This document shows, piece after piece, positions 43,867 through 62,187 of a stretch of 64,000 bases of DNA. The stretch spans positions 33,412 through 97,411 of IMG/VR virus record IMGVR_UViG_3300036670_000258; one strand, given 5' to 3'. The notes beneath the pieces are model-generated. The model saw only the letters and a list, made by a program, of their open reading frames with translations, ran no database searches and had not been told where the DNA came from. Each line of letters starts with the position of its first letter. Within the stretch, counting starts at the first letter, position 1. Source of the DNA: a virus. Its lineage: Duplodnaviria > Heunggongvirae > Uroviricota > Caudoviricetes. The position numbers and the translations under genes were made by a program.

Positions 43867-43891
43867 CCTTTTATTTTTTTGTGTTTTTATC

Positions 43892-43952: not shown

Positions 43953-43953
43953 A

Positions 43954-45185: not shown

Positions 45186-45215
45186 ATTGATGGTGTTTAA
45201 GATTGATTAATTATT

Positions 45216-45276: not shown

Positions 45277-45305
45277 TATACACATTACATTTGTTTTAAT
45301 TTGTT

Positions 45306-45366: not shown

Positions 45367-45370
45367 ATTT

Positions 45371-47123: not shown

Positions 47124-47381
47124 TTAATCGCCTGTCATTATTACCAGGTCTTTTAATTTTTTTAAGATATCACATTTTTCATATTCTTCAGTTTCTATAA
47201 AATAAGCAAGCAAAACATCTATGAACATGCTTCTTTGTCCCTTTCCATGTGGAATGTCTATTGTGTTTTTACCGTCTTGATATACTATGAATCTGTTAAC
47301 TGTTTTTGTAAAGCTTTTAGTAATTATATTGTAGCTGGATCTCATCAGAGAGTCTCTTTCTTCTCCACTTACATTTTCCAT
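47124..47381 (-). CDS. small protein with C-terminal UVR-like helix (family member 1)
   Basis: YFIETEEYEKCDILKKLKD. Confidence 0.7.
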   Translation of the reverse strand: MENVSGEERDSLMRSSYNIITKSFTKTVNRFIVYQDGKNTIDIPHGKGQRSMFIDVLLAYFIETEEYEKCDILKKLKDLVIMTGD

Positions 47382-47473
47382 TATTGAATATTGTTTTTAA
47401 TAGTGGAAATAACTCCACCTACATTATATATTTATATGGTAACATGTTAAATATCCAGAAGTCTAAAAGGTTA

Positions 47474-47740
47474 TTATATTATAGCGGTAGTTTTTAGTTT
47501 AATTATTATTTTTTTAAGTTCTAGACATTTCTCATATGCCTCTCTTTCTAAAAAGAAATTTAATACACTTTGCACCCCTTCTATTTTATCGTTAATAGTT
47601 CCGTTATGCTTTAACGCACCCATTTTACTTTCTACTATTGAATTGTATATTAGCTCCATCATATCTTCCTTTGAAGAATTTTGTAGTTTTTTTAAAAATT
47701 GATTGCTATTTATGCTGTTGTATTCCTCTAATTCATCCAT
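47474..47740 (-). CDS. small protein with C-terminal UVR-like helix (family member 2)
   Basis: FFLEREAYEKCLELKKIII. Confidence 0.7.
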   Translation of the reverse strand: MDELEEYNSINSNQFLKKLQNSSKEDMMELIYNSIVESKMGALKHNGTINDKIEGVQSVLNFFLEREAYEKCLELKKIIIKLKTTAII

Positions 47741-47793
47741 CTCTGGTTTAAATTTTTTTAATAATATAATTTAGGCTTTAAAATCATTATAAA

Positions 47794-48597
47794 TTATATA
47801 TCGTATTTTATCTTATTTAATAGCTCTATTTGCTTATTGTTTAAAATGATATTACGCGTTCTTAATTTGACAAATAAGTTTCCAAATCCTTCATTATTAT
47901 ATATTGGCATTCCCTTACCAACTATTCTAAGGAGTTTAGAATCATAAGATCCTTGAGGAACCTTAATAATTACATTTTGTAGTTTATTTTTAATTTTAAA
48001 GTCACCTCCTAATATTAAATCAATCCAATCTAATTGGAGGTCTATATGTATATCGCTGCCGTTTATTATAATGTCTAAATCGTAAAGAACATTTACTGTT
48101 AAAATAATATCCCCTGGTGTTGAGCTAATACCATTAGTAGGGAGCGCACCTTTTCCACTTACTTTAAGTTTTGTGCCATTTGGAATTCCTTTAGGTATAT
48201 TAATATTAAATCCACCCGTGCCTACATCAATGTGTCTTAATGCTCCATAATAACATTCTTCCAATGAGATCGATATTGAAACCTTAATGTCAGCACCCTT
48301 TGTTACACCACCACTAAATGCGGTATTGAACATTTGTGAAAAATCATCACTAGAAAAAAAGTTAGTCCAATCGTATTGCGTATTTGGAGCTGACTTGTAT
48401 GTTGCTTCAGTATAGCCCTTTGTTTTACCTTCGATGCCTGTTAATGTATCATACGCATGTGCAATTTTTTTAAACTCAGTATCATCACCATTATTTACAT
48501 CAGGATGATGTAATTTTACAAGCTTGCGGTATGCCCTTTTAATATCCTCAGATGTGGCTTCACGAGATATGCCTAGTACTTTATAGTGATCTATCAT
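47794..48597 (-). CDS. dnaJ: DnaJ-family co-chaperone (type II, no zinc finger)
   Basis: J-domain HYKVLG...IKRAYRKL..LHHPD; C-terminal IPKG...LKVSGKG...PGDIIL and GKGMP...GNLFV. Confidence 0.9.
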   Translation of the reverse strand: MIDHYKVLGISREATSEDIKRAYRKLVKLHHPDVNNGDDTEFKKIAHAYDTLTGIEGKTKGYTEATYKSAPNTQYDWTNFFSSDDFSQMFNTAFSGGVTKGADIKVSISISLEECYYGALRHIDVGTGGFNINIPKGIPNGTKLKVSGKGALPTNGISSTPGDIILTVNVLYDLDIIINGSDIHIDLQLDWIDLILGGDFKIKNKLQNVIIKVPQGSYDSKLLRIVGKGMPIYNNEGFGNLFVKLRTRNIILNNKQIELLNKIKYDI

Positions 48598-48607
48598 ATC
48601 TTGTCAA

Positions 48608-48793
48608 TTAAACCTGTGTATTTAAAGTAGTTTTTGATTTTAAAGATTTTAAAGATTCCCTGGATAATTCTCTAGATTCTTTTATTTTTTTAGAATTTAA
48701 TGCTATTTCCCTTGATTGAGCATTTTGCATACAGGTCGCAATTATCAATAGAGCATCTGCGATTTTTTCTAAACTTTCTGCCTCTGTTTTCAT
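48608..48793 (-). CDS. hypothetical protein
   Basis: 61-aa ORF. Confidence 0.55.
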   Translation of the reverse strand: MKTEAESLEKIADALLIIATCMQNAQSREIALNSKKIKESRELSRESLKSLKSKTTLNTQV

Positions 48794-48807
48794 ATTAGTG
48801 TGTTTAT

Positions 48808-49065
48808 TTATTGTAGATGATATTCATATTCATCTATGATTTGTTTAATATTTTGACATTTTTCATACTCTTCAACTTCTAGAAATAATAAAATCATTTC
48901 GTGTAATGTATTAATAACAGGGGTGACGTCCATCCCTCTTTCTTTCATTTCATCGAGATCGATTCCCTTTGAAATTAACATATCGTAATTATCATTACAT
49001 AACTTAAACTTTAAGTTGTTAATTAATTCTGCTGTTGGTGGGTTAAATGCATCAAAATTTTCCAT
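48808..49065 (-). CDS. small protein with C-terminal UVR-like helix (family member 3)
   Basis: LFLEVEEYEKCQNIKQIID. Confidence 0.7.
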   Translation of the reverse strand: MENFDAFNPPTAELINNLKFKLCNDNYDMLISKGIDLDEMKERGMDVTPVINTLHEMILLFLEVEEYEKCQNIKQIIDEYEYHLQ

Positions 49066-49082
49066 ATATTGTTTGTTTTACT

Positions 49083-49143
49083 ATATGTAAATATAATCAT
49101 TTTAAATGAAAATAAAAAAATATAAATGTTAACTTTTTGTTAA
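49083..49143 (-). promoter_or_regulatory. bipartite motif copy 4
   Basis: TTAACA-N5-TTAACA at 49127-49143; N29; ATTATATTTACATAT at 49083-49097. Confidence 0.8.
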
Positions 49144-49146
49144 AAG

Positions 49147-49320
49147 ATTATTGTCTTAGATAATGAATCAACTATTAGTTTATTTATCTGATTTTGAATA
49201 TTGTTATTTGTGATAGAATCCACATAACGTGTTACTATTCCATTTTCTAATTTCAACAATTAGATACGTACTAGCAATCATACGCGTGTCATCAGTTGAT
49301 TCATTATCTAAGACAATAAT
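49147..49320. repeat. perfect 27-bp inverted repeat with 120-bp spacer
   Basis: ATTATTGTCTTAGATAATGAATCAACT (49147-49173) is the exact reverse complement of 49294-49320. Confidence 0.95.
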
Positions 49321-49407
49321 ATTTTCACAAAATTGTTAATAATGCCTTAGATAGTATGAAATCATCTCTTGCTCATTCCATAATGTAACGTATGCCCATA
49401 TTTTCAT
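49204..49407 (-). pseudogene. truncated GT2-like glycosyltransferase remnant with in-frame TAA
   Basis: Manual translation MKIWAYVTLWNEQEMISYYLRHY*QFCENIIVLDNESTDDTRMIA...; TAA at 49336-49338; GT-A N-terminal NE...DNxSTD pattern. Confidence 0.75.
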
Positions 49408-49409
49408 AA

Positions 49410-50135
49410 TTATACGATTATAGGCAAGTATGACATTTTTAAAAAAACATTTATAGTCGATTTAACATCAGACTCGCAATATGTTGCTATTTTTTCTAAA
49501 TTTCCATTCCAATATTCAAATGTAGTTTCATTTCCTCTCATTTCTGATTTAGGTGAAGGAATTTGAAGACACTCACATATTAAATCAAGTGAAGCACTAT
49601 TCCAACCTGCAAATTTCCAAATCTCATAACTATCTACTAAGCAGTTTTCCCATGGCTTCTTTTTTTGCAAGTGAAATTGAGATGGAGTTAACACATTGTT
49701 AATAATAGCCCTTTTAAGTAAAAACGGAAAGTCAAAGTTTTTTATATTATGACCTGTGAATTTTACATTAGGAATTTTATTAAATATAGAATTAGCAGTA
49801 CCCATGAATTCGGTTAATAATATCGATTCGTCATGACCGCTGAATGTTTTAATCCTTGCCATGTTTGGCATTTCGTTTTCATCAAATTGAATATGACCAA
49901 TTGATATAGTTACAATTTTAGCAAATTCGGGATTAAGAGCAGCCTTATCTATGTATATTTGATCATCCCTTAAACCGACACATGATTTTTCAGTGTCTCT
50001 ATAGAAATTTGCCTTTTTTTCCCACATTTTAGTTGCTCCGGGTCTTTTTTCTATAAATTCTTCGTATGTATGATATTCTGATACCGTTTCAATATCAATA
50101 AACATCATTGCCTTTAGTTCTTGAATGTTATACAT
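49410..50135 (-). CDS. DEDDy 3'-5' exonuclease (PolB-exo-like)
   Basis: FIDIETV, GHNIKNFDFPFL, YCESDV. Confidence 0.85.
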   Translation of the reverse strand: MYNIQELKAMMFIDIETVSEYHTYEEFIEKRPGATKMWEKKANFYRDTEKSCVGLRDDQIYIDKAALNPEFAKIVTISIGHIQFDENEMPNMARIKTFSGHDESILLTEFMGTANSIFNKIPNVKFTGHNIKNFDFPFLLKRAIINNVLTPSQFHLQKKKPWENCLVDSYEIWKFAGWNSASLDLICECLQIPSPKSEMRGNETTFEYWNGNLEKIATYCESDVKSTINVFLKMSYLPIIV

Positions 50136-50376
50136 TTTGATTGATTTTAAAAATGTTATAAATTGATATTGGATATGTTGTTTTTTTGCCGTGCTTATTT
50201 AGTTTTTCACTGTCATCACTCATCCAATACCATGCATGACCGTATATTTTCGTTAATGGTTCATCCAATTCAATAATAGGACCATTGAATTGACTTCCTG
50301 CAAATTTAAAATAATATTTTTCACCTATTTTTGGGTTTGGAACGCTGATAGTCTGTACTTTTAAATTCTTTGCCAT
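50128..50376 (-). CDS. hypothetical protein
   Basis: ATG at 50376 (MAKNL) preferred; track start 50433 is inside the hairpin/motif. Confidence 0.6.
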   Translation of the reverse strand: MAKNLKVQTISVPNPKIGEKYYFKFAGSQFNGPIIELDEPLTKIYGHAWYWMSDDSEKLNKHGKKTTYPISIYNIFKINQNV

Positions 50377-50405
50377 ATTGTATATGTTTAGTTGTTTTAA
50401 TTTGT

Positions 50406-50466
50406 ATATGTAAATATAATCAAAAAACTCCATATTAAAAAATATGGAGTGTTAAAGTTTTGTTAA
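50406..50466 (-). promoter_or_regulatory. bipartite motif copy 5
   Basis: TTAACA-N5-TTAACA at 50450-50466; N29 containing a hairpin; ATTATATTTACATAT at 50406-50420. Confidence 0.8.
50427..50450 (-). terminator. hairpin terminator inside the motif spacer
   Basis: ACTCCATATT-aaaa-AATATGGAGT with minus-strand T-run; downstream of the GT gene. Confidence 0.75.
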
Positions 50467-50477
50467 ATTAAGTATTA

Positions 50478-52325
50478 CTATTCTTGATATATTATGTTTG
50501 CAGCCATTTCTTCAGCTCCATAACGAGATTCTGTATTTAATGGTGAGTTTGGATTTTCAGAATATGCCCAATCGTTTAACCCTAAATGAGTAAACCTATC
50601 ATTAATTTGTTCATTATAGTATGATGATATGGTTCCTACTCTACGTTGAATATCTGCTCTCGCTAAATCATGTGTATTTTGTCCATTTGAATTACTATAT
50701 AAAAATTGAATATATCCTAATTTAGGTATCTTACATGTAATTGTTTTCAAGAAGGTTCTAACTACTAATTCATAATCATCGGCAATAGCTAGGTTTCGGT
50801 TATGTCCTCCTATTTCAAAATATGTCGATCTTCTCCATGCTCTTACATGATTTGGAACCCCTACTATATGTCTAATTGTTTTTGGATTAATATTATGTTG
50901 AGTTGCGATAGACATAATATTTCCATTATATTCCTCAGATCTATATTTACCATATCCAAGTGCAAATCCTTCAGGATACGTTTGGGATTCCCATTGTTCA
51001 TTGACCTCGAGGGTATCATTAAAAAAGAAGCCGGCCTCAGGATGTTTCTTCGACGCCTTAAATAAATCCATAGTACATGATGGAACCAATAAATCGTCAT
51101 GATCTAATTCTGCAAGAAGATATCCCTTTGCCAATGTACAACATTTCCATTTAACGTCTCCAATATTCCCTCCGCTTTTTTCTCTAAAGTCATATACCTT
51201 AACCCTAGGATCTTTACTTGCGATCTTTTCAGCTACTTTCAGTGACCTACCCCCATCAGTTGAATCATTGACAATTACCCATTCCCAATTAGAATATGTC
51301 TGATTCAATAATGATTGATATGTATTATATAATTTGTTTCCAATATTATAGATCGGTGTAAAATAAGATATCATATCCGCATCTTCTAATCCATTGATGT
51401 CTAACATTGACAGCATGGCACATTGGTATGCAGCTTCTCCTACTTCTTGGTTTGTTTTTTCATGCGTCATATTAATCCACTTTCTTCTAAATTGTAAAGG
51501 TAGTTGAGATAGATTTTCGAAATCTTTCCAACTATTTCCTCGAGTTACAATACTATCTGGTTTAAATGAAGCAATTTGAGATATAATATCGTCGTCATTT
51601 TTTAGATATAATACATTTAAATTGTCTGCCTCATAATTTACATATTGAATAGACCGGAGCACTGGCATATCCTTTCCAATATATATTATCTTCGGAACAT
51701 TTGCCAATGGTTTTAATGATAAAGCATTATAATAACACAATTCTTTTTTTACAAAAAAGAAGATATCTGGTTTTTCATTATATACCTTTTCGATTAGTAT
51801 TCCATCTGCACAATAATCAGGTTCGAATGAGTATTCCACATTGTTATTATATACATTTGAATGTATAATATATTGTGCTAAATCGACTAAGCCAACTTTC
51901 ATAGCAGATGGAATAGCAATCCTACTTGTAAGTCCGCTATGATCTCTTTTATCTACCTTTTGTGAAAATACATAAACACTGTGATATGGGTGATGTTGAT
52001 TTGTTTCAAATATATTTTTATAGAATTGAGGATGTAATATGTTATCGTCATCTATAAAATATACCCACGTATCAGTGAATGATTTTATTAATTTACTACA
52101 CTGTGGAAATAACATACCCACTGAATCTCCTCTTTCAAAATGATATATTGTATTTTTATCCTTGATGTCAAATAGCAATTCAGCATCAATATCTTTAAGT
52201 GATGTTACATCAAACATGACATGCCATTTAATGTTAATATCTTCGGGTATATTATTAAATATTGATTTTTTAACTTCTTTTAAATTATGTAACCGTGTAC
52301 ATCTCGTTATTATACTAATATTCAT
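50478..52325 (-). CDS. glycosyltransferase with two GT2/GT-A domains
   Basis: Domain 1 MNISIITRC...YFIDDDNILHP; domain 2 ISYFTPIYN...WEWVIVNDS...AELDHDD...ADDYEL. Start set at MNISII. Confidence 0.85.
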   Translation of the reverse strand: MNISIITRCTRLHNLKEVKKSIFNNIPEDINIKWHVMFDVTSLKDIDAELLFDIKDKNTIYHFERGDSVGMLFPQCSKLIKSFTDTWVYFIDDDNILHPQFYKNIFETNQHHPYHSVYVFSQKVDKRDHSGLTSRIAIPSAMKVGLVDLAQYIIHSNVYNNNVEYSFEPDYCADGILIEKVYNEKPDIFFFVKKELCYYNALSLKPLANVPKIIYIGKDMPVLRSIQYVNYEADNLNVLYLKNDDDIISQIASFKPDSIVTRGNSWKDFENLSQLPLQFRRKWINMTHEKTNQEVGEAAYQCAMLSMLDINGLEDADMISYFTPIYNIGNKLYNTYQSLLNQTYSNWEWVIVNDSTDGGRSLKVAEKIASKDPRVKVYDFREKSGGNIGDVKWKCCTLAKGYLLAELDHDDLLVPSCTMDLFKASKKHPEAGFFFNDTLEVNEQWESQTYPEGFALGYGKYRSEEYNGNIMSIATQHNINPKTIRHIVGVPNHVRAWRRSTYFEIGGHNRNLAIADDYELVVRTFLKTITCKIPKLGYIQFLYSNSNGQNTHDLARADIQRRVGTISSYYNEQINDRFTHLGLNDWAYSENPNSPLNTESRYGAEEMAANIIYQE

Positions 52326-52341
52326 TGTATTTTTTATTAAA

Positions 52342-53274
52342 TTAAATGTCAAAAAAGAACATGTGAAATAGTCTTGCGTTTTCCTTTTTATCTCCAAAAT
52401 ATTGCGTGGCAGCGTGAATGTTTTTAGCGTCAAACAGGACTAGTCGATTATATTTGTTTCCTATTTCATCAATTTTTTCAAAGTGACTTCCATCATAGAA
52501 ATTCATTTCAGCATTACTTCCCTTAAATGCATTTACATAACTTTCAGTCATTCTTTTTTCATTATCAAAGGAATAATCGCCAGTTACTTTACTTCGATAA
52601 AATGTAGTTCCGGAATTAGCCGGAGCGTCTGGTGATAAAAATACCATACCTGCATAATTTTGATTGTCAACATGATAAACGATAGGCTGATCTGCTGTGC
52701 AGAATTGAAATATTCCGTTTGCGTAACTATCATCATTCCAATTATAAATAGGTTTACCTATTATTTTTTCAAGTTTTTCTTTCATACCAATAATAGAAAA
52801 CCTTTCAGTTGCCCTCTCTCCTTTATGATAACTTGATGGTGAAAAATATATTTCTTTGATTGCCCATTCACGTATAAAATCAGGGTCTGAATAAAAATCA
52901 TCTACTACAATTAATCCCTTTTCTTCAGATTTAAATCCAGAATGGTATGCGATCCACTTTGCCATAGAGCCAATATCTAATAGTTCCTTTTTCCCCTTTA
53001 CCTTTAATTGAATAGAATCAAATGCATTTGATTTTTTTAGATAAAAATTAATACCAGGATTTAAATCAGTTGGATTGTAATATAGCGTCACATCTTGCCT
53101 TGGAGTAAATATAGGTGAAACAGATTTTTTATCTATTAAAATATCTTCAATATTGTATTTAGTTGAACAGATCCATCCGTGGATATCATGGAGCGTGTCG
53201 GAATGGTCTGATATGCTGTCAATATACATGTATACTTCTGGCATATTAGTCTCATGTTTAATTATGTTTGCCAT
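52342..53274 (-). CDS. 2OG-Fe(II) dioxygenase (DUF6445-like) with N-terminal extra domain
   Basis: VVDDFYSDP, HxD (YHVD), YAGMVFL.P, GTTFY, YNRLVLFD...IHAA, RLF. Confidence 0.8.
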   Translation of the reverse strand: MANIIKHETNMPEVYMYIDSISDHSDTLHDIHGWICSTKYNIEDILIDKKSVSPIFTPRQDVTLYYNPTDLNPGINFYLKKSNAFDSIQLKVKGKKELLDIGSMAKWIAYHSGFKSEEKGLIVVDDFYSDPDFIREWAIKEIYFSPSSYHKGERATERFSIIGMKEKLEKIIGKPIYNWNDDSYANGIFQFCTADQPIVYHVDNQNYAGMVFLSPDAPANSGTTFYRSKVTGDYSFDNEKRMTESYVNAFKGSNAEMNFYDGSHFEKIDEIGNKYNRLVLFDAKNIHAATQYFGDKKENARLFHMFFFDI

Positions 53275-53326
53275 ACTAATTATTAGTTAAAGTTATTATT
53301 ATATTATATTATTATATATCGCTAAA

Positions 53327-53348
53327 AAAGATCCGATAAAGGATCTTT
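53327..53348 (-). terminator. probable terminator
   Basis: AAAGATCC-gataaa-GGATCTTT. Confidence 0.6.
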
Positions 53349-53387
53349 AAATAGCTGTTATTATTATATAAACAATGGTAGACTTGT

Positions 53388-53864: not shown

Positions 53865-53887
53865 ACTCTATTGTTTTATATTTTTTA

Positions 53888-56158
53888 TTATTTATCTTTA
53901 TTTTTTAAAAGAAGTCTTACAAGTTCCTTTAATTCATCTATTTGTGATTGTTGTTCCTTTATAGCTTCAATGAAAAGACCCGCCATGTTACCATATGCGA
54001 CCGAGTACATTCCAGTTACGTCTGCTTTAACTAATTCTGGCATTACCTTTAAAACTTCCTGGGCAATAACACCAGATGATCGAGATATTTTATCATCTTT
54101 GTCATTTCTTGTAAATGTAACACCCCGGAGCGCTTTAATCTTTTCAATTGCATCTGGAATTACTTTAATGTTTTCTTTAACTCTAATATCCGAAAATGCA
54201 GTAATATCACCACTTGCTGTAATTGAGCCAGTAACAAGTAAATTGTAATTAACTCGTGTATTGTTATCTCCATTACCTACTGAGAAGGCTTCTACGTTCC
54301 TATACCCTCCGGTATAGAAAACATGTCCTCCATATCCTTGATGCGCGCTATATCTAACTCCTGTATAAAATGAAACATCTAAAGGTTGTGTCCAGTCACC
54401 TGCAGACTTTCCTATCCAGTAATTCATATCATTATTATTCAAATACATGCCTATTGCAGCTGAATTAGTAACACTACCTCCTCCTAATATAAAGGTGTTT
54501 CCTGAGATATTATTAGCAGTATTTGCATTACCATTCAATGCTCCATTAAACGTAGGTGCTGTTAATGCACCTGTTAAAGTTCCTCCACTAATAGGCAATG
54601 CATAACTTGCTACGTTTGAACTATTAAGATAATAAGCCCATCCTCCGAAAGTACCGCCTGACACACACCTTACTGCTAATTTATTAGCATTATCTTCCCA
54701 TCCCCATGCTATTTGAGTTCCCCATAAATTACCTCCGTTAGCGTGACGAAGAGTTTCATAGTTCCACCATGTTCCACCAGGACCATTAGAAATATTCGAA
54801 TTATCACCTGAGTATCTCTTAGTGCCAGCTTCTGTTGCACTAAATTCTGCGTTTGCATCAGTAAAAGATTTTCTCTGGAAAGCAGTAGCGTATGATGCAT
54901 TACCGCCAATACTTAATGAACCCGCATTCCCGGTTAATCCGCCGCCAGACCCATAATATGTTCCTGCAATACCTATGTTTCCTGATGATGCATTTAAAAA
55001 TATTCTTGAAGCACCGTTTGCTGCAACATACATTCCCCATCCAGATCCAGCACCCTGGGCACTTACACCTGCATTACCGCCAACATTAAATCCTATACCG
55101 TACATAATACCAAGGGATGTAAGGGCAGGATTATATGCACTACCGATAGTATATATGGGATTTGTGTGAGCGGCATTATCTCCGACATTATTATATGAGC
55201 CTTCGAGAAATCCGGTAATTGAAGATGTTCGTTTAATTGTACCCGATAAAGTACCTCCTGTTAATGGTAATTTACTACTGTCAGTTGCAGTGGTAGTTGG
55301 TGGTCCAACTGCACCTTGAGGTCCAACTAATCCTTGAGGTCCAATTAATCCCTGATCTCCAATAAATCCTTGAAACCCAACTAATCCCTGTTGTCCAATA
55401 AATCCTTGAAAACCTCGTAATCCTTGAGGTCCAACTAATCCTTGAGGTCCAATTAATCCCTGATCTCCTTTAAAACCCTGAGGTCCAACTAATCCTTGAG
55501 GTCCAATTAATCCCTGATCTCCAATAAATCCTTGAAACCCAACTAATCCCTGATCTCCTTTAAAACCTTGAAACCCAATTAATCCTTGAGGTCCAACTGA
55601 TCCTTGATTTCCAACTAATCCTTGAGGTCCAACTAATCCCTGTTGTCCAATAAATCCTTGAAAACCTCGTAATCCTTGATTTCCAATTAATCCTTGATTT
55701 CCAATTAATCCTTGAGGTCCAACTAATCCTTGAAACCCAACTAATCCTTGAGGTCCAGTAATACCTTGAAACCCAACTAATCCTTGAGGTCCAGTAATAC
55801 CTTGATTTCCAACTAATCCCTGTTGTCCAACTAATCCTTGAAAACCTTGTAATCCTTGATTTCCAACTAATCCTTGAGGTCCAACTAGCCCTTGAGGTCC
55901 AACTAATCCTTGAGGTCCAGTAATACCTTGATTTCCAACTAATCCCTGAGGTCCAGTAATACCTTGATTTCCAACTAATCCCTGTTGTCCAACTAATCCT
56001 TGAAAACCTTGTAATCCTTGATTTCCAACTAATCCTTGAGGTCCAACTAGCCCTTGAGCGCCTATAATACCCTGATTTCCTTGGTATCCTTGATTTCCAA
56101 TAGTAGATAACGCTTCTTCTAGCCCATCTATTTGTTTGATTTTAATTGGTGGAGGCAT
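53888..56158 (-). CDS. collagen-like fiber protein with C-terminal intramolecular chaperone (peptidase S74)
   Basis: 89 Gly-X-Y triplets; fiber-knob segment WGTQIAWG...LAVR...FGGW; FSDIRVKENI...LRGVTF...GVIAQEV...VAYGNM. Confidence 0.88.
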   Translation of the reverse strand: MPPPIKIKQIDGLEEALSTIGNQGYQGNQGIIGAQGLVGPQGLVGNQGLQGFQGLVGQQGLVGNQGITGPQGLVGNQGITGPQGLVGPQGLVGPQGLVGNQGLQGFQGLVGQQGLVGNQGITGPQGLVGFQGITGPQGLVGFQGLVGPQGLIGNQGLIGNQGLRGFQGFIGQQGLVGPQGLVGNQGSVGPQGLIGFQGFKGDQGLVGFQGFIGDQGLIGPQGLVGPQGFKGDQGLIGPQGLVGPQGLRGFQGFIGQQGLVGFQGFIGDQGLIGPQGLVGPQGAVGPPTTTATDSSKLPLTGGTLSGTIKRTSSITGFLEGSYNNVGDNAAHTNPIYTIGSAYNPALTSLGIMYGIGFNVGGNAGVSAQGAGSGWGMYVAANGASRIFLNASSGNIGIAGTYYGSGGGLTGNAGSLSIGGNASYATAFQRKSFTDANAEFSATEAGTKRYSGDNSNISNGPGGTWWNYETLRHANGGNLWGTQIAWGWEDNANKLAVRCVSGGTFGGWAYYLNSSNVASYALPISGGTLTGALTAPTFNGALNGNANTANNISGNTFILGGGSVTNSAAIGMYLNNNDMNYWIGKSAGDWTQPLDVSFYTGVRYSAHQGYGGHVFYTGGYRNVEAFSVGNGDNNTRVNYNLLVTGSITASGDITAFSDIRVKENIKVIPDAIEKIKALRGVTFTRNDKDDKISRSSGVIAQEVLKVMPELVKADVTGMYSVAYGNMAGLFIEAIKEQQSQIDELKELVRLLLKNKDK
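55298..56098 (-). repeat. uninterrupted (Gly-X-Y)89 with 18-bp/6-aa period
   Basis: Counted from the translation; typical DNA unit CCTTGAGGTCCAACTAAT on the plus strand. Confidence 0.95.
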
Positions 56159-56202
56159 ATGTGTTTACTTACTTTTTAATAATGATTGTAGTATTATATA
56201 TT

Positions 56203-57405
56203 TTATTTATATAGGTTAGTTTTCCAATTATACTTATATGTCTTTTTGTGTTTGTGTAAATCTGGCTCCCAGAGATTTCTTATTAACATTTCATATGTTT
56301 TGATTATTTCGGGATTTGTCGATATGTATCTATTTAAAACTTTATCACTTTTTTCTTTATATTCTTTAATTTGAGAATCATGTTTATTTATAGCAATGTC
56401 TAGTTGTTTCATTCCTCCTGAAATTTCAAAGTCCTTGTAATAATATCCAGCATCTTTAATAAAATCAGCATTGTGCACTACTGGATAATTAAAATAGAGC
56501 GCGTCTAAATATGAATAATTTAATGGATTTCCCCACTGATGAGCTAGCACTATATCTGTTTCCTCCGCAAGAAATGTAGTTACCGGATATCTTGGAATAA
56601 ACTTTATTAATGGACTTTTTGCATTAACTATATCCATTAATTTTAACATTCCCATAAAGTACTTGTTTTTTAGTAATCTATTACCACTTCCGACAAACAG
56701 TTGTTTAAATGAACCTTCTCCGAATTTTCTATAAAATGATTCAACAATCATAATCGGTATTAACGCGTATTTTACTACGTTTAAATTTGGTTCCATTACT
56801 GATATTTTCTTTTCAGAAATAGGACGAGGTTGATATTCTGGTATTTTTTTACCAAGTGACTGTAGTATTTTTTTGTTTTTTTCAATAAACATAGGGTCCC
56901 ATATAAATGGAACTACCTTAACCTTTCCAGGTTCATGTCTATATATTAATTCAAAATATTCTTTATTATGTAGTTCTTGCTGTGGAATTATCCATGTTTC
57001 GTCATGACCTTTATCCCATGCGGGTAATCCAGGTGCATCACTTTCTCCAAATAAAACTCTTTCCATGTCTATTACATAATTGTTGCCACATTGGTACTTT
57101 ACGACCCTTGCATTTGGATTATTTTTTCTAAGAGCTGCAGTATATATTTCAGGTAATGAGGTTCCAAGTGTTATCAATAAGTCTAATTCTTTCCATTTGT
57201 CCTTATATTTATAAGTCTTAAATATGTTAGTATCCCAAGTTACCTTCGATAGATCCTGTACAATGTTCGATGTGTCTAATATCCAAACGTCGTTGCCTTT
57301 GATTTGTAATAGGGTGTGCGCTAGATATAATGCATTGAGTTTTATCCCATTAATCCATAATGATTCGTTTTCTTGTGAAAGTCCTATAGTTATTCCTATT
57401 TTCAT
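56203..57405 (-). CDS. DUF2827-like putative glycosyltransferase
   Basis: SLWINGIK.NA, EPNLNVVK, TDIVLAHQWGNPLNYSYLDAL..NYPVVHN...GYYY pattern recalled for DUF2827; not database-verified. Confidence 0.7.
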   Translation of the reverse strand: MKIGITIGLSQENESLWINGIKLNALYLAHTLLQIKGNDVWILDTSNIVQDLSKVTWDTNIFKTYKYKDKWKELDLLITLGTSLPEIYTAALRKNNPNARVVKYQCGNNYVIDMERVLFGESDAPGLPAWDKGHDETWIIPQQELHNKEYFELIYRHEPGKVKVVPFIWDPMFIEKNKKILQSLGKKIPEYQPRPISEKKISVMEPNLNVVKYALIPIMIVESFYRKFGEGSFKQLFVGSGNRLLKNKYFMGMLKLMDIVNAKSPLIKFIPRYPVTTFLAEETDIVLAHQWGNPLNYSYLDALYFNYPVVHNADFIKDAGYYYKDFEISGGMKQLDIAINKHDSQIKEYKEKSDKVLNRYISTNPEIIKTYEMLIRNLWEPDLHKHKKTYKYNWKTNLYK

Positions 57406-57442
57406 ATAAGCATTAATTTTTATACTGTATATATTACATAAA

Positions 57443-57466
57443 AAAAGGACCTAAAAAGGTCCTTTT
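57443..57466 (-). terminator. probable terminator
   Basis: AAAAGGACCT-aaaa-AGGTCCTTTT. Confidence 0.75.
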
Positions 57467-57484
57467 AATACTATTTGCTGAAAA

Positions 57485-58621
57485 TTAAAATTGATAAGTA
57501 ATCACAACAACATCGTTCGCGTCTATTGCATATCCTGGATTTGCGATAACAACCGAGGTTCCACTCACAGAGGCTATTGACGTTTTAATACCATTCACAT
57601 ACGCTTGAGCCAAATACTTGTTATTGTCCTGTACTGGATTTATAAGAGAATATGTCAAAGATATCGTTCCAGTAAATGTTTCTTCAAACATTTCAAAGTC
57701 CTGCATAAGAGCACTTTCAATTGAAGTTACTTTCGTGGTTATTGATGTTTCGGCTGCGATAGCTCTTGCCTTTTCAATAGAGTCCTGTACCGATACAACC
57801 GCCTCAACTCTTACAAAGTCAGAATTGGTAGATGAAATTTCAGAACTTAAAGCTGATGTTAATAATGTTGCTCTAGTATTTATTGAAGTTACATCGCTAT
57901 TGGTAGCTACTATTTCCGAACTTAAGGCAGCTGCGAGAGCAGTTGCTCTAGCATCGATTGAAGTTACATCATTATTAGTAGATACAATTTCTGAACTTAA
58001 GGACGCTGCAAGTGCAGTTGCCCTGGTATCAATTGAAGTTACATCATTATTAGTAGATACAATTTCGGAACTTAAGGACGCTGCGAGCGCATTTGCTCTA
58101 GTATTTATTGAAGTTACATCTGAATTTGTAGCTGCAATTTCAGCGTTTAAGTTACCAACTACTACTGCTAGTGCGCCATCATTTGTCGTATCTACTGCGT
58201 TAATTAACGAAACTATTTCAACAAAAGAGTCTTTATCGGCGTCAGACGCTGTCAAAATCGCATCAATTCTCGATTTTTCAGTGTTAATATTTGCTGACAG
58301 ATTAGATTCTACCGAAGTAGCTCTATTAATTTCCGTAGTTAACCTATTAGTTATAGAAAGCTCACTTGAAGTTGCTCTAGTTATTTCGGCTGAAATAGAA
58401 CCATCAATTCGAGTAACATCGGAATTTGTTGAGTTTATTTCAGTAGAAAGCGCAACTTCTAATGAATCTATGGATGCGTTAATATTTCCAGTAATTTGAC
58501 CCGTAACTGAGTCGATATACGCCTTAGTAGCTACGGCTCCTGCTATTTTATTTTCGGTTACCGTTGCCCAGTTTACCGTTGCTAAAAAGTCTGCAATTTG
58601 CTTAGACCTAATTTGTGCCAT
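57485..58621 (-). CDS. coiled-coil fiber/stalk protein with 25-aa repeats
   Basis: EITRAT/EINRAT coil motifs, tandem 25-mers, C-terminal VNG...GYAIDAND.V.ITY domain. Confidence 0.65.
   Translation of the reverse strand: MAQIRSKQIADFLATVNWATVTENKIAGAVATKAYIDSVTGQITGNINASIDSLEVALSTEINSTNSDVTRIDGSISAEITRATSSELSITNRLTTEINRATSVESNLSANINTEKSRIDAILTASDADKDSFVEIVSLINAVDTTNDGALAVVVGNLNAEIAATNSDVTSINTRANALAASLSSEIVSTNNDVTSIDTRATALAASLSSEIVSTNNDVTSIDARATALAAALSSEIVATNSDVTSINTRATLLTSALSSEISSTNSDFVRVEAVVSVQDSIEKARAIAAETSITTKVTSIESALMQDFEMFEETFTGTISLTYSLINPVQDNNKYLAQAYVNGIKTSIASVSGTSVVIANPGYAIDANDVVVITYQF
57803..58150 (-). repeat. 75-bp (25-aa) tandem repeat, 4 full copies plus partial
   Basis: LSSEIVSTNNDVTSIDTRATALAAS-type units starting at 58150, 58075, 58000, 57925, 57850. 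Confidence 0.93.
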
Positions 58622-58690
58622 TTTCTTCTTTTTATTTTTAATTCACGTTATTCGTATTTATTATTATATATATTTAATAAATGTGTAGTA

Positions 58691-59914
58691 TTATCCTAAA
58701 TAGTCTATCTCATATATTAAGTTTATTTCATCACCTACTTCTAATTCGAATCCTGCGATATTGCCATTCCATATTAATTGATCTTCTCTTCGTATTTCTC
58801 CAATTAACATTGAAGTTTCACCATTGTTTCCTGAAAAGTAAACTGTCTTATTTTTAGCTCCATCGCCTACATCAACACTAATACCATTCACTTCTACCAT
58901 AACATAGGATTGTTTGTATGGAGAATATGTAATGTATATTCCTGTAGGAGAACCTGCACCATTAGTCGCAAACGCAACTCTTTTGTTCTTGTCAGTATAT
59001 GTTAATACTCCTTCTGGTTTAACTGTAATACCATGTGCATCTATACTGAATGCTACATTATCACCTACTTGCCATATTGATTTATTAACACCTGGTCCTC
59101 TTGAAAAATCTTCAAGAACAACCTTTAAACGAATTCCATCACTGTCAGCGTCAACACCATTTCCAGGAATAACATCAATTCTTTCAGATGTTAAAATTTT
59201 ATATATTGCATAAAATGATGGATTGTCTATACTGAATAATGTAATAATTCCGGTAATATTATCAACTCCCATTCGGTTAACAACAAAATTTTCAAGTGAC
59301 GCAGGTCTAATTAAATTTAAATCTAAATTTCTAAATGTCATTATGCTTATTTCAGAAGGATCCTGTGAATTAACTGACATATATCCATATCTAGAAGGTA
59401 TATCGGAATCTATGTATTCTATCATGTATTCAGAAGATCCAAATGGTTTTCTAGAAATAACCTGAACCGGTGATGGAATTATAACATCAGGGTCGTCTAC
59501 AAATTCTCCAGCGATAATGCGCCCTACTTTAAATAGTGGCATGATGTAAGTCTTTGCTGATGGAAAATAATTACTATAAACTATTCTAATCCTTGCAAAC
59601 AAATCACCAGGATCTAAGTATCTTGAAATGTTATCTATTATTTCAAACGAAATATTTCCTGCATTATTTGTGTTTACACTTCCAAGATTTAATTGCTGTG
59701 AAACTCCAGGAATTACCGGATTTCCAAATACAAGCTGTAAATCACCCGTTTCATTTAATATTTCCACCGAAATTGATGTTACATATTGCAGTGACACTGG
59801 ATTTCCAAGAAAGTCCCTATCTAATTGTATGTTATATGTTTGAGAATTTCCTTGAATCACATTGAATGTTTCTTCAATGCTCGCCAGGATATCTTCTTGA
59901 ATTACGTAAGCCAT
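58691..59914 (-). CDS. putative virion structural protein
   Basis: N-terminal BppU-like QGNSQT..IQL; C-terminal VEVNG...GFELEVGDEINLIY domain shared with 57485..58621. Confidence 0.5.
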   Translation of the reverse strand: MAYVIQEDILASIEETFNVIQGNSQTYNIQLDRDFLGNPVSLQYVTSISVEILNETGDLQLVFGNPVIPGVSQQLNLGSVNTNNAGNISFEIIDNISRYLDPGDLFARIRIVYSNYFPSAKTYIMPLFKVGRIIAGEFVDDPDVIIPSPVQVISRKPFGSSEYMIEYIDSDIPSRYGYMSVNSQDPSEISIMTFRNLDLNLIRPASLENFVVNRMGVDNITGIITLFSIDNPSFYAIYKILTSERIDVIPGNGVDADSDGIRLKVVLEDFSRGPGVNKSIWQVGDNVAFSIDAHGITVKPEGVLTYTDKNKRVAFATNGAGSPTGIYITYSPYKQSYVMVEVNGISVDVGDGAKNKTVYFSGNNGETSMLIGEIRREDQLIWNGNIAGFELEVGDEINLIYEIDYLG

Positions 59915-59956
59915 TTTTAAAATTTATTTTTAATAAGATATGATTGTGTATATATC

Positions 59957-60655
59957 TTAAATACCATGTTTAATTCTGTTAAATATGCAATATTGCATAA
60001 GTGGAATCATACATTCATCATGTGCAGGCATTTCACCTTTGATTTTTACGTCAAATCTAAAAAATCTAAATTTATTACTTTCTAATTCTTTCTCTGAAAT
60101 AAATTGAGCAATACTTTGTAAGTTATTTTTAATTACGAATTGCTTATTTACTTTAAAATTAATCCAATCTATTTTAAAACTCAAAGGTTCCTTATAAGAA
60201 TATACTTCAATATTTTCAAGTTTAGCATCAATATACATTATATAGCCTGTTGTATTTAATGTTCTTTTGTTTGGTATTTCAGTAATTATGCAATTTTTTT
60301 CTAGATTTCTCCATTTGTCTCTAACTAATCTATACATATCTTCTAATAGCTCAATTGCCATATCACATACTTTATAAATGATTTCGTGCTCAGTTTCGGA
60401 CTCATATTTATATTTTAAAGATAATGTGTCAGTGTCGATTCCGATGATCTTTCTAGAATTATTATCTATTATATCCCTGTTGTATTTTATATTATAAAGA
60501 ATTTCTAATTCTGTTTCAACTGTCGACATCGCAGAATAAAGGCTATTATCTAATATAAGGGATTTGATTTCCTTTATTCCAGATAATAGCCTATATTGTT
60601 TTAATTCGTAATCGTAAGGAGTTTCTGTTAACCAATTTTTATTAAAGATGTTCAT
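59957..60655 (-). CDS. hypothetical protein
   Basis: 232-aa ORF; NWL...DYELKQY.LL N-terminus. Confidence 0.7.
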   Translation of the reverse strand: MNIFNKNWLTETPYDYELKQYRLLSGIKEIKSLILDNSLYSAMSTVETELEILYNIKYNRDIIDNNSRKIIGIDTDTLSLKYKYESETEHEIIYKVCDMAIELLEDMYRLVRDKWRNLEKNCIITEIPNKRTLNTTGYIMYIDAKLENIEVYSYKEPLSFKIDWINFKVNKQFVIKNNLQSIAQFISEKELESNKFRFFRFDVKIKGEMPAHDECMIPLMQYCIFNRIKHGI

Positions 60656-60705
60656 ATACTATGTATCTCCATAGACATGCTAATATTTAACAAAAACTTA
60701 TTATA

Positions 60706-61020
60706 TTATAATATTCTTCTAGATTCTGTTGTGTTTTTACCTTTATGGATATCCATTTTATCTCCAGTTACAACAGGAAGTCCACATTGTAATATAAACC
60801 AACTTGCCTCAATCTCAGCTTCTTCTTTAGAAATTTTAAGAACATCTTTCATTCGAAGAACGCAATGATTAATAAAAACGTTTTCCTTTTCGGGTGTTGT
60901 TGTGTATTCCATATACCACATTGGATTTTCACTAACATCTTCAAACTTTACGTTATGATCGATTAATTGATAGTTTTTTAATTCAACGAGTAGATTTCTG
61001 TGTTTTTCTCTTTGTGTCAT
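60706..61020 (-). CDS. hypothetical protein
   Basis: 104-aa ORF, 4-nt overlap with the upstream gene. Confidence 0.65.
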   Translation of the reverse strand: MTQREKHRNLLVELKNYQLIDHNVKFEDVSENPMWYMEYTTTPEKENVFINHCVLRMKDVLKISKEEAEIEASWFILQCGLPVVTGDKMDIHKGKNTTESRRIL

Positions 61021-61244
61021 AATGAAAGTAAAGATATTAATAGTTCATTGTCATTTAGTCTAACATATTCGTCATGTGATATGTCTACCATATATGATCC
61101 TTTGAAGTAATTTGCAGCTATTTTAATAGGTTCACCTCCTGGCTCTATTCGTTCCTTCTCCAATAATTTATTTAAGACATAAATGTCGCTTTGTATTATG
61201 TAAAAGTGTACTCTCATATTATCTCTTGGCAGTAATGATTTCAT
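61017..61244 (-). CDS. hypothetical protein downstream of clpP
   Basis: 75-aa ORF overlapping the clpP end. Confidence 0.55.
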   Translation of the reverse strand: MKSLLPRDNMRVHFYIIQSDIYVLNKLLEKERIEPGGEPIKIAANYFKGSYMVDISHDEYVRLNDNELLISLLSL

Positions 61245-61890
61245 CTATAATTCCATATTTTAATGCCTCTTCGGCGTTTAACCATAAATCCCGAGTCGCA
61301 TCATTCATTACTTGTTCTGGTTTTTTACCACAATATTGTCCTAACAAATTAAATAATTCTTTGTTAACTTTTTTCCATTCAGCCCAATCAATTTCTGCGT
61401 CTTGAATGTTTCCACTAAATCCTCCAGAAGATTGATGTAACATAGTGGTAGAGTGTCTTAGAGAACTTCTCTTACCTTTAGTTCCAGCTCCTAATAATAC
61501 AGAACCCATCGACGCTGCCATTCCTGTGTTAACTGTTTTTATATCTGAGTTGATATATTCCATTACGTCAACCATAGAAAGACCTGATTTTACAGAACCT
61601 CCTCCAGAATCAATATGCATTGTTATATCTCTTTTATCGACAGAATCCAGAAACATTAATTGCGCCTGTACTATTGTTGACATATTATCATTCACAGTTC
61701 CGGCAACCCATAGAACGCGGTCCATCATAAGTCTTGAAAAAATATCCATCTGTGTTGCTCTCAATTCTCTCTCCTCTAAGATATAGGGGGTCATTGATCC
61801 TTGAATTTGTTTCTTATAATATTCCATAGACATTGAGCTTATATTGTGATCGCTCATTGCGTACTTGTTAAATTCTTTTTCGTGGTTCAT
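61219..61890 (-). CDS. clpP: ATP-dependent Clp protease proteolytic subunit
   Basis: DIFSRLMMDR, GGSV..GL, catalytic GMAASMG (Ser), MLHQ (His), RDLWL (Asp), ALKYGIIDEI. Confidence 0.96.
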   Translation of the reverse strand: MNHEKEFNKYAMSDHNISSMSMEYYKKQIQGSMTPYILEERELRATQMDIFSRLMMDRVLWVAGTVNDNMSTIVQAQLMFLDSVDKRDITMHIDSGGGSVKSGLSMVDVMEYINSDIKTVNTGMAASMGSVLLGAGTKGKRSSLRHSTTMLHQSSGGFSGNIQDAEIDWAEWKKVNKELFNLLGQYCGKKPEQVMNDATRDLWLNAEEALKYGIIDEIITAKR

Positions 61891-62187
61891 TTATAATTTT
61901 TCTAAAAGTTGTTTTACATTATTACATTTTTCATATTGTTCGTCTTCCACATAGAAATTAATGCTTCTTATAAGTGCCTGTTTGTATGCTTTCTTTGGAA
62001 GTTTTGCAACCATTATAGTTCCATCCTTTGTAATAAAATGACATAACACGATTTCATTAATTTCTCCACTTATATTTTTTGCAATAAAGTCTATAATGTT
62101 GTCATGGAATTGCGAAGTATCTGCTATTAACATTACGTCATCTACATCAATGCTAAAATTTGGAATTTTATACATGCTATCTATCAT
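61891..62187 (-). CDS. small protein with C-terminal UVR-like helix (family member 4)
   Basis: FYVEDEQYEKCNNVKQLLEKL; immediately upstream of clpP. Confidence 0.7.
   Translation of the reverse strand: MIDSMYKIPNFSIDVDDVMLIADTSQFHDNIIDFIAKNISGEINEIVLCHFITKDGTIMVAKLPKKAYKQALIRSINFYVEDEQYEKCNNVKQLLEKL

What the first reader, a model, noticed from the sequence alone, without database searches (positions are those of the whole stretch)
47124..62187. Four small proteins with unrelated N-termini share a C-terminal UVR-like E-x-YEKC helix: a possible adaptor set for a phage Clp protease
Seen: 47124..47381 (FIETEEYEKCDILK), 47474..47740 (FLEREAYEKCLELK), 48808..49065 (FLEVEEYEKCQNIK) and 61891..62187 (YVEDEQYEKCNNVK) share the consensus [FY]-x-E-x-E-x-YEKC-x2-[LIV]K at their C-termini, and their N-terminal 50-70 aa look unrelated. 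One copy sits directly upstream of clpP and three flank dnaJ. Known: the UVR motif (E-x-YE-x-AA-x-LRD) forms the ClpC middle domain and occurs in McsA, where it mediates coiled-coil docking. Inference: constant docking helix plus variable substrate-binding head, i.e. a modular adaptor or anti-adaptor family steering phage or host ClpCP to different targets. The invariant Cys in place of Ala could be a redox or metal site.
Basis: partly seen in the sequence, partly recalled or inferred. Interest (0 to 1): 0.82.

Follow-up and report, generated by a model that had tools for sequence, protein, structure and literature searches.

The report
Cysteine-bearing UVR-like hairpin phage proteins
Four small genes of an uncultured large T4-like phage end in the same helical hairpin, a cysteine-bearing, virus-only cousin of the UVR pairing motif; they sit beside the phage's own DnaJ and ClpC-ClpP genes, so a helper role in protein quality control is plausible, but no binding has been shown.

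Summary
Four minus-strand ORFs (85-98 aa) each end in [FY]-x-E-x-E-x-YEKC-x2-[LIV]K. These are the only in-ORF YEKC in the 161-kb contig (0.08 expected). One correction: Y1 and Y4 also share an N-terminal helix plus beta-hairpin.

The shared part is a ~33-residue helix-turn-helix hairpin that defines a large family (745 clusters at 50% identity). Almost all members are small proteins of uncultured phages, and the family has no Pfam or PHROG entry. It is UVR-like but not a UVR member. Pfam UVR misses all four window proteins and reaches its cut-off in 1 of 146 representatives. Profile-profile similarity to canonical UVR is modest (1 of 1000 permuted controls reaches it).

The Clp-adaptor idea is only partly supported.
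- For: the order clpC-thyA-Y4-clpP is kept while Y4 diverges. Sister phages place a canonical double-UVR gene beside their N-domain-less clpC.
- Against: Y1-Y3 belong to a dnaJ operon. Four of five complete phage genomes with the hairpin have no Clp genes.

Binding is untested. This scan reached the same reading on other phage DNA (e1-5398282, e1-5366184, e1-5399705).

The parts
47124..47381 (-). Y1, 85 aa. Predicted helix 6-23, beta-hairpin 31-43, then the C-terminal hairpin (helices 49-63 and 67-82; DNA about 47136-47237) carrying EEYEKC.
   Evidence: ORF. 86 orthologues with invariant EEYEKC. AlphaFold2 model with pLDDT 80.
47474..47740 (-). Y2, 88 aa, all-helical (four helices). The hairpin is helices 49-65 and 69-87 (DNA about 47480-47596).
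   Evidence: AlphaFold2 model with pLDDT 83, and 94-96 over the hairpin.
48808..49065 (-). Y3, 85 aa, first gene of the Y3-orf61-dnaJ-Y2-Y1-phoH-rnhB unit. Hairpin at about residues 50-82 (DNA about 48820-48918).
   Evidence: Synteny in 20 related loci.
61891..62187 (-). Y4, 98 aa, between thyA and clpP. Its start overlaps the thyA stop by 4 nt and its stop abuts the clpP ATG. Same head as Y1 (helix plus beta-hairpin). Hairpin at about residues 66-98 (DNA 61894-61992).
47794..48597 (-). Phage DnaJ-like co-chaperone (J domain plus DnaJ_C), flanked by Y3 upstream and by Y2 and Y1 downstream.
   Evidence: Pfam DnaJ 64.5 bits and DnaJ_C 88.9 bits. The flanking arrangement is kept down to 30% DnaJ identity.
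48608..48793 (-). orf61, a small predicted protein between Y3 and dnaJ, present in most relatives. It has no YEKC hairpin.
49072..49146 (.). Copy of the repeated promoter-like intergenic cassette, immediately upstream of Y3. The next copies lie at 45211-45369, downstream of the membrane-protein gene. This suggests that Y3 through that gene form one transcription unit.
   Evidence: Direct-repeat families D1 and D2. The transcription unit is an inference.
61219..61890 (-). Phage ClpP (223 aa).
   Evidence: Pfam CLP_protease 189 bits.
62184..63038 (-). Thymidylate synthase, lying between clpC and Y4.
   Evidence: Pfam Thymidylat_synt.
63065..64000 (-). C-terminal 311 residues of a 655-aa ClpC-type unfoldase (the whole gene is G000 96476-98443). 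It has no N-domain, a short M-domain with a genuine UVR motif (DYEKASKLRD), and a GIGF ClpP-docking loop.
   Evidence: One search aligns it to S. aureus ClpC residues 157-796 in a single stretch.

Best explanation
Y1-Y4 are real small phage proteins built from different N-terminal parts (helix plus beta-hairpin in Y1 and Y4; all-helical in Y2 and probably Y3) and a common ~33-residue C-terminal helix-turn-helix hairpin, roughly [LIM]-x2-[LIM]-x-[YF]-[FY]-x-E-x-E-E-Y-E-K-C-x2-[LIV]-[KR]. This hairpin is a cysteine-bearing, essentially phage-only variant of the UVR type of pairing hairpin. Its most likely job is protein-protein docking by hairpin-to-hairpin packing, as UVR hairpins do in UvrB-UvrC and on the ClpC M-domain. 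In this phage lineage all four copies sit inside protein-quality-control gene groups (Y3-orf61-dnaJ-Y2-Y1, and clpC-thyA-Y4-clpP). I therefore read them as small accessory factors of the phage's own chaperone and protease set. Y4 is the best candidate for a partner of the N-domain-less phage ClpC, docking on the UVR hairpin of its M-domain, which is the only classical adaptor site that enzyme retains. On this reading Y4 would be the counterpart of the double-UVR protein encoded beside clpC in sister phages.

Shown: the genes, the family, the predicted hairpin, the weak UVR likeness and the gene-order facts. Inferred: docking as the function, ClpC as the partner, and any effect on substrate choice.
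For: The genes are real and constrained: orthologues at 60-80% identity keep length and motif.

The hairpin is predicted with high confidence.

The family is large and the hairpin is C-terminal: 745 clusters at E<=1e-3, typically 10-20 residues from the end, with Cys in all of the best 150 bona fide hits.

UVR likeness: Pfam UVR hits 9 of 146 representatives, best 22.2 bits against a cut-off of 21.5. Pfam UVR also gives 16 bits on a Y3 orthologue in a genome scan. hhalign against 16 canonical bacterial UVR segments aligns 32-34 columns in register, score 15.6, P 0.0013; 1000 column-permuted controls give mean 7.0, sd 1.55, and 1 reaches the real score. The nearest named Atlas cluster by language-model features is viral and has UVR in 13% of members.

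Gene order: clpC-thyA-Y4-clpP is found in all 7 viral loci with ClpC >=68% identical and in 3 further relatives, while Y4 falls to 22-29% identity but keeps E-x-[YF]-E-x-C. Y3-dnaJ-Y2-Y1 is found in about 20 loci, down to 30% DnaJ identity.

The phage ClpC lacks the N-domain and keeps a UVR-bearing M-domain and the IGF loop.

Independent parallel: 37 of 66 N-domain-less phage clpC loci have a divergently transcribed 114-158 aa protein with two canonical UVR motifs (Pfam 57-77 bits). None of 14 N-domain-bearing loci has either this gene or a Y4-type gene. In other loci the same slot holds Hsp20 or Hsp70 genes.

The two kinds of gene are complementary in complete genomes. G001 has Y-type genes and no extra Pfam UVR; G042 and G044 have the double-UVR gene and no YEKC hairpin.

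Literature precedent: several UVR-domain proteins and the adaptor CLPF co-purify with plastid CLPC1 (PMC8889267), and phage SPO1 Gp53 is an adaptor-like modulator of ClpC (PMC6873191).
Against: Pfam UVR does not match any of the four window proteins. Against the phage's own ClpC UVR, only 9 columns align (P 0.0036, probability 9%).

Of 5 phage genomes that are >=90% complete and carry the hairpin, 4 have neither ClpP nor a Clp-type ATPase. Neighbours of the hairpin genes in about 50 unrelated phage loci are mostly unknown proteins, a sigma-like factor, SNase or DUF4326, not chaperones.

The conserved position of Y1-Y4 could be inherited gene order alone, because unrelated genes (thyA, phoH, rnhB) are just as syntenic and as tightly packed.

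Fold searches return only generic helical bundles.

The N-domain correlation is not corrected for phylogeny and rests on 3-kb flanks.

The similarity between Y4 and the double-UVR protein is weak (hhalign P 0.002, probability 13%).
Confidence: 0.42

Rival explanations
1. The hairpin is a general self-association module. Y proteins form homo- or hetero-oligomers with each other through a four-helix bundle, possibly locked by the invariant Cys through a disulfide or a shared metal. They have diverse functions unrelated to Clp, and their position next to dnaJ and clpP is inherited gene order only.
For: The family is spread over many phage lineages without Clp genes and in varied gene contexts. 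UVR hairpins are known to pair with like hairpins (established for the UvrB C-terminal domain; my own knowledge). Several paralogues per genome would allow hetero-pairs. Cys is found at this position in all of the best 150 bona fide family hits, while canonical UVR tolerates Ala or Ser there.
Against: It does not explain why, in this lineage, every copy lies in a chaperone or protease cluster. It does not explain why canonical double-UVR genes pair specifically with N-domain-less clpC. Oligomerisation was not tested here.
Confidence: 0.28
2. Host takeover: the hairpin mimics the UVR hairpin in order to dock on host UVR-bearing proteins (UvrB or UvrC of nucleotide excision repair, or the host's own ClpC), blocking or redirecting them during infection.
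For: The hairpin occurs mostly in phages without their own Clp genes. The few cellular occurrences are mainly in Bacteroidota MAGs. Those genomes encode UvrB, UvrC, ClpC-type and DUF151-type proteins with canonical UVR. There is precedent for a phage protein acting on host ClpC (PMC6873191).
Against: There is no direct evidence. Sequence similarity to canonical UVR is weak. The host of this phage is not established. Conserved embedding among the phage's own clpC-clpP and dnaJ genes points to a phage-internal partner, at least for Y4.
Confidence: 0.12
3. One reading: all four are a modular set of adaptors or anti-adaptors that steer ClpCP to four different substrate classes through their variable heads, with the Cys acting as a redox or metal switch.
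For: The evidence is the same as for the best explanation. In addition there are different heads on a constant hairpin and an invariant Cys.
Against: Only Y4 is linked to clp genes. Y1 and Y4 share a head. The complete relative G001 carries only three copies, and none was found at the Y2 position. The family is mostly found outside Clp-encoding phages. No second conserved metal ligand is shared across the groups.
Confidence: 0.1

Closest known systems
UVR motif (Pfam PF02151) of UvrB, UvrC, the ClpC M-domain, McsA and DUF151-UVR proteins
   Same: Both are helix-turn-helix hairpins of about 35 residues. The core pattern is aromatic-E-x-small-x-x-[LIV]-basic at the turn (YEKC-x2-[LIV]K here, [YF]E-x-AA-x-LRD in UVR). 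The two align in register over 32-34 profile columns. A few family members reach or approach the Pfam cut-off.
   Different: Cys replaces the first, invariant Ala of UVR. The R-D pair of UVR becomes K-x. Helix 1 is hydrophobic ([LIM]-x2-[LIM]-x-[YF]-[FY]) rather than A/K-rich, and an acidic E-x-E-E run precedes the Tyr. The four window proteins do not match Pfam UVR. The distribution is almost entirely phage: 8 loci among 185,579 species genomes.
Small double-UVR proteins encoded divergently beside N-domain-less clpC in large freshwater and marine phages (alignment A11)
   Same: They are small phage-only proteins whose N-terminal helix and beta-hairpin with a D-G turn resemble those of Y1 and Y4, followed by UVR-type hairpin(s). 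They lie next to a phage clpC that lacks the N-domain. Their distribution in complete genomes is complementary to that of the Y-type genes.
   Different: They carry two canonical UVR motifs (Pfam 57-77 bits) with Ala or Ser instead of Cys. They lie upstream of clpC rather than between thyA and clpP. Homology to Y4 is only suggestive (hhalign P 0.002). Their function is also untested.
ClpC adaptors: MecA and McsA/McsB (Bacillus, Staphylococcus), plastid CLPF (UVR plus YccV), and phage SPO1 Gp53
   Same: They are small proteins that bind ClpC and tune its activity or substrate choice. CLPF and McsA contain a UVR motif. Gp53 shows that phages do encode ClpC modulators.
   Different: There is no sequence or fold match to MecA, McsA, ClpS, CLPF or Gp53. 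The classical adaptors need the ClpC N-domain, which the phage enzyme lacks. Binding of Y proteins is not shown.

Membership tests
UVR motif, Pfam PF02151 | Match to the Pfam profile at or above the curated cut-off (21.5 bits) | tested here: not met
   There is no UVR hit for Y1-Y4 at E<=10. A six-frame scan of the whole contig hits only the ClpC M-domain (27.3 bits). In the wider family, 9 of 146 representatives hit at E<0.1 and one reaches 22.2 bits.
UVR motif, Pfam PF02151 | Helix-turn-helix hairpin of about 35 residues | tested here: met
   The AlphaFold2 models give Y1 helices 49-63 and 67-82, and Y2 helices 49-65 and 69-87, with pLDDT 88-96 over the hairpin. This is prediction only.
UVR motif, Pfam PF02151 | Conserved core [YF]-E-x-A-A-x-[LIV]-R-D | tested here: inconclusive
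   Y, E and [LIV] are kept. The first Ala is always Cys, Arg becomes Lys, and Asp is not kept.
UVR motif, Pfam PF02151 | Profile-profile similarity to bona fide UVR segments | tested here: inconclusive
   hhalign against 16 bacterial UVR segments gives score 15.6, P 0.0013 and probability 19%, and 1 of 1000 permuted controls reaches that score. Against phage ClpC UVR only 9 columns align.
Clp adaptor or regulator (MecA, McsA/B, ClpS, CLPF, Gp53 type) | Physical binding to a Clp ATPase and an effect on its activity | not testable with these tools
   This needs pull-down, ATPase and degradation assays.
Clp adaptor or regulator (MecA, McsA/B, ClpS, CLPF, Gp53 type) | Conserved gene linkage with clp genes | tested here: inconclusive
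   It is met for Y4: thyA-Y4-clpP in 7 of 7 close clpC loci plus 3 relatives. It is not met for Y1-Y3, which are linked to dnaJ.
Clp adaptor or regulator (MecA, McsA/B, ClpS, CLPF, Gp53 type) | Family occurs in genomes that encode the Clp partner | tested here: not met
   Four of 5 phage genomes that are >=90% complete and carry the hairpin lack ClpP and AAA_2. Host Clp proteins could still serve as partner, so the idea is weakened but not killed.
Clp adaptor or regulator (MecA, McsA/B, ClpS, CLPF, Gp53 type) | Sequence homology to a known adaptor family | tested here: not met
   There is no Pfam, PHROG or PDB sequence match to any adaptor.

The most novel reading that the evidence does not exclude
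The EEYEKC-hairpin proteins and the canonical double-UVR proteins together form a new class of regulators that dock on the M-domain. On this reading they took over adaptor duty in phage ClpC enzymes that have shed the N-domain. Their interchangeable heads would bring different clients, or link the DnaJ/Hsp70 system, to the unfoldase. Members in phages without Clp genes would hijack the host ClpC in the same way.
Probability: 0.18. Interest if true: 0.8.

Novelty: new variant of a known kind. Interest (0 to 1): 0.55.

Why it matters
Large phages of aquatic bacteria often carry their own ClpC-ClpP, DnaJ, Hsp20 or Hsp70 genes. How an N-domain-less ClpC is switched on and given substrates is unknown. 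A family of hundreds of clusters of small phage-only proteins sharing one invariant hairpin is a concrete, cheap-to-test candidate for that missing regulator. If instead it proves to be a general pairing module, it is still a recognisable tag for sorting many small phage ORFans. The invariant Cys, at a position where canonical UVR carries Ala or Ser, is an unexplained chemical feature worth a mutational test.

Tried and rejected
- Complex prediction of phage ClpC residues 1-345 with Y4, using alignments A9 and A10, gave no verdict (score 0.31, mark 0.32). It counts neither for nor against binding.
- Foldseek against the PDB for the Y1 and Y2 models found nothing at E<=0.001. The best hits were PipX at E 0.5 and INTS3/6 at E 1.
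- VIA-align wide search for Y1 returned only generic three-helix bundles with Z<=8.4, including BAG domains. This is within the background range for helical models.
- The Atlas shape search returned viral hypothetical proteins, PipX (TM 0.51) and one UvrB row (TM 0.45). It was not informative.
- A PDB sequence-profile search with the four paralogues found nothing relevant.
- No relative of Y1 or Y4 was found by tblastn in GenBank phage records, and no PHROG family matches.
- Looking for a shared neighbour family in about 50 non-clade loci found only lineage-specific unknown proteins, DUF6171 and a sigma-70-like protein.
- I considered a capsid-targeting or degron tag and rejected it as the primary reading, because the segment is a well-predicted folded hairpin packed against the rest of the protein.
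- I considered a TPR-like repeat. Only weak SHNi-TPR or DHR-2 sub-threshold hits appeared.

Full report
**Setting.** The window is bases 33412-97411 of a 161-kb IMG/VR virus record estimated at 67% complete. It has about 30% G+C and nearly all genes lie on the minus strand. The stretch in question encodes PhoH, RNase HII, a DnaJ-like protein, glycosyltransferases, fibre proteins, ClpP, thymidylate synthase and the C-terminal half of a Clp ATPase.

**Observation.** The four ORFs are at the stated coordinates and end as quoted.
- A six-frame scan of the window and of the whole contig finds YEKC inside real ORFs only in these four. Each lies 10-16 residues from the C-terminus and is preceded by [FY]-x-E-x-E.
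- From the composition of the minus-strand ORFs, 0.08 YEKC are expected, which gives Poisson P = 1.7e-6 for four.
- The hairpin-coding DNA of Y1, Y2 and Y3 is itself a 53-nt direct repeat at 66-74% identity (family D3).
- The genes are real. A word-indexed search found 136 relatives, 120 of them listed. Eighty-six are Y1-type and 31 are Y2-type at 59-99% identity, with the same lengths and invariant EEYEKC.

**What the shared part is.** AlphaFold2 with family alignments gave two models.
- Y1 (pLDDT 80) has helix 6-23, a beta-hairpin at 31-43, helix 49-63, a three-residue turn and helix 67-82.
- Y2 (pLDDT 83, and 94-96 over the C-terminal part) has four helices, the last two being 49-65 and 69-87.

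The constant element is therefore a helix-turn-helix hairpin of about 33 residues, with E-E-Y-E-K-C at and just after the turn.

The heads are not all unrelated. Profile comparison shows that Y1 and Y4 are related over 58 columns, including the beta-hairpin (probability 95%). Y2/Y3 and Y1/Y2 share only the hairpin.

**Size and range of the family.**
- An exhaustive HMMER search with a 40-column hairpin profile found 745 clusters (50% identity) at E<=1e-3.
- Among the best 150, nearly all are proteins of 40-250 aa with the hairpin at the very C-terminus. YEKC dominates (102 of the 118 motifs my pattern caught, the rest mostly YERC, YEEC or YEQC). Every bona fide motif has Cys. The profile was built from Cys sequences, so this count is biased towards Cys.
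- The pattern E[ED]YEKCxx[LI] matched at least 599 stretches in IMG/VR.
- Only 8 loci were found in one genome each of 185,579 prokaryote species. Most are Bacteroidota MAGs.
- No PHROG family and no GenBank phage record matches. No paper mentions the motif.
- Other architectures carry the same hairpin on unrelated N-terminal parts of 84-256 aa.

**Is it UVR?**
- Against: Pfam UVR does not hit Y1-Y4. In a six-frame scan of the contig it hits only the ClpC M-domain.
- For, from Pfam: across 146 family representatives UVR is the second most frequent Pfam hit. Nine match at E<0.1, the best at E 2.2e-5, and P0236 scores 22.2 bits against a cut-off of 21.5. A Y3 orthologue scores 16 bits in a genome scan.
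- For, from a profile comparison: I built a canonical UVR alignment from 16 UvrB, UvrC, ClpC-type and DUF151-type segments of five bacterial genomes. hhalign aligns the hairpin profile to it in register over 32-34 columns, with score 15.6, P 0.0013 and probability 19%. One thousand column-permuted controls give 7.0 +/- 1.55, and one reaches the real score.
- Weak point: against the UVR of phage ClpC proteins only nine columns align, YEKCA-x-LKK to YE-x-AA-x-LRD.
- Fold searches are uninformative for such small helical models.

My reading is that the hairpin is UVR-like and possibly a very divergent offshoot, but it is not a demonstrable member of that family.

**The cysteine.** The Cys occupies the position of the first, invariant Ala of UVR. 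In the phage double-UVR proteins described below, that position is Ala or Ser. The exclusive Cys is therefore unexplained. It may be tight packing fixed by history, or a chemical role. Neither was tested.

**The Clp connection.**
- The phage ATPase is 655 aa. It aligns to S. aureus and B. subtilis ClpC from residue about 155 to the end in one stretch, whereas ClpB needs two stretches.
- It has no Clp_N domain. It has UVR in a short M-domain and a GIGF loop. It is therefore a ClpC that has lost its N-domain, the usual adaptor and phospho-arginine site.
- The order clpC-thyA-Y4-clpP is found in all seven viral loci whose ClpC is >=68% identical, and in three further relatives. Y4 diverges to 22-29% identity yet keeps E-x-[YF]-E-x-C.
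- Overlapping or abutting start and stop codons link thyA, Y4 and clpP, but they also link the unrelated thyA, so this proves little.

**An independent parallel.** Among 80 phage clpC loci:
- 37 of the 66 N-domain-less ones have, divergently upstream, a 114-158 aa gene with two canonical UVR motifs (Pfam 57-77 bits). This gene has an N-terminal helix and a beta-hairpin with a D-G turn, reminiscent of Y1 and Y4.
- Seven of the 66 have Y4 instead, and 22 have neither.
- None of the 14 loci whose ClpC keeps an N-domain has either gene. Fisher's exact test gives P = 2.5e-6, not corrected for shared ancestry.
- Where neither gene is present, the upstream slot holds Hsp20, Hsp70 or a KTSC gene.
- In complete genomes the two kinds are complementary. 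G001 has Y-type genes and no extra Pfam UVR. G042 and G044 have the double-UVR gene and no YEKC hairpin.
- Direct similarity between Y4 and the double-UVR protein is only suggestive: 56 columns, P 0.002.

**What speaks against a Clp-specific role.**
- Y1-Y3 are not near clp genes. They belong to a conserved block, exonuclease-Y3-(orf61)-dnaJ-Y2-Y1-phoH-rnhB, seen in about 20 loci down to 30% DnaJ identity.
- In the window a copy of the phage's repeated promoter-like cassette lies just upstream of Y3. The next copies lie beyond the membrane-protein gene, which suggests one transcription unit.
- Of 25 longer viral records that carry the hairpin, only 4 have ClpP and a Clp-type ATPase. Of the 5 that are >=90% complete, 4 have neither.
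- Neighbours in unrelated phages give no common theme.
The caveat is that hosts such as Bacteroidota have their own UVR-bearing ClpC-type proteins.

**Conclusion.**
- The best-supported account is a phage-only, Cys-bearing, UVR-like pairing hairpin attached to different small heads.
- In this lineage all four copies lie in protein-quality-control gene groups.
- Y4 is a credible, untested partner of the N-domain-less ClpC.
- Literature gives precedent for UVR proteins and phage proteins acting on ClpC (PMC8889267, PMC6873191), but nothing on this family.
- Earlier notes of this scan on other phage genomes reached the same reading. I found the double-UVR pairing independently before reading them. 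I then tested their claim of exchange with small heat-shock genes.

Noticed in passing
L005:2780-4330 (IMGVR_UViG_3300037295_000360, a relative whose ClpC is 98% identical): The clpC gene is interrupted exactly after the D2 Walker A GPTGVGK. The upstream ORF continues with C-F-T-G-E-T-L-I..., which looks like an intein N-terminus. The downstream ORF ends its insert with ...S-H-N followed by T-E-T-V-K. The two halves are separate ORFs about 1.2 kb apart with a 96-aa ORF between them. This looks like an intein, possibly split or with a decayed endonuclease. The window's own clpC has no insert.
   Followed up: partly
window 49072-49146, 45211-45369, 43881-43955 and 50395-50469: Copies of a ~75-nt intergenic cassette (TATATGTAAATATAATCA ... 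TGTTAA-x6-TTGTTAAA), some with a hairpin in the middle. One copy sits directly upstream of Y3, so the Y3-dnaJ-Y2-Y1-phoH-rnhB block looks like one cassette-bounded transcription unit.
   Followed up: partly
L141:2394-2762 and 36 other loci (alignment A11): A small phage-only protein family with the conserved start MFG-x-R-K-x-N, a beta-hairpin and two canonical UVR motifs, divergently transcribed from N-domain-less clpC. Its N-terminal part resembles the start of the Hsp20 genes that occupy the same slot in sister phages.
   Followed up: partly
L125:819-2681, L126 and L150: Phage-encoded full-length Hsp70/DnaK (Pfam HSP70, 868 bits) directly upstream of the phage clpC in some sister phages.
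   Followed up: partly
L114, L119, L121-L123, L128, L143, L147, L162, L163 (downstream of clpC): In phages whose ClpC keeps an N-domain, clpC is followed by a very long collagen-like Gly-X-Y repeat gene. It is similar to the window's fibre gene at 53888-56158.
   Followed up: no
L032:6001-7078, L035:892-1972: Two 240-256 aa hairpin-bearing proteins from different samples are each followed by a DUF4326 gene. This may be a conserved pair.
   Followed up: no
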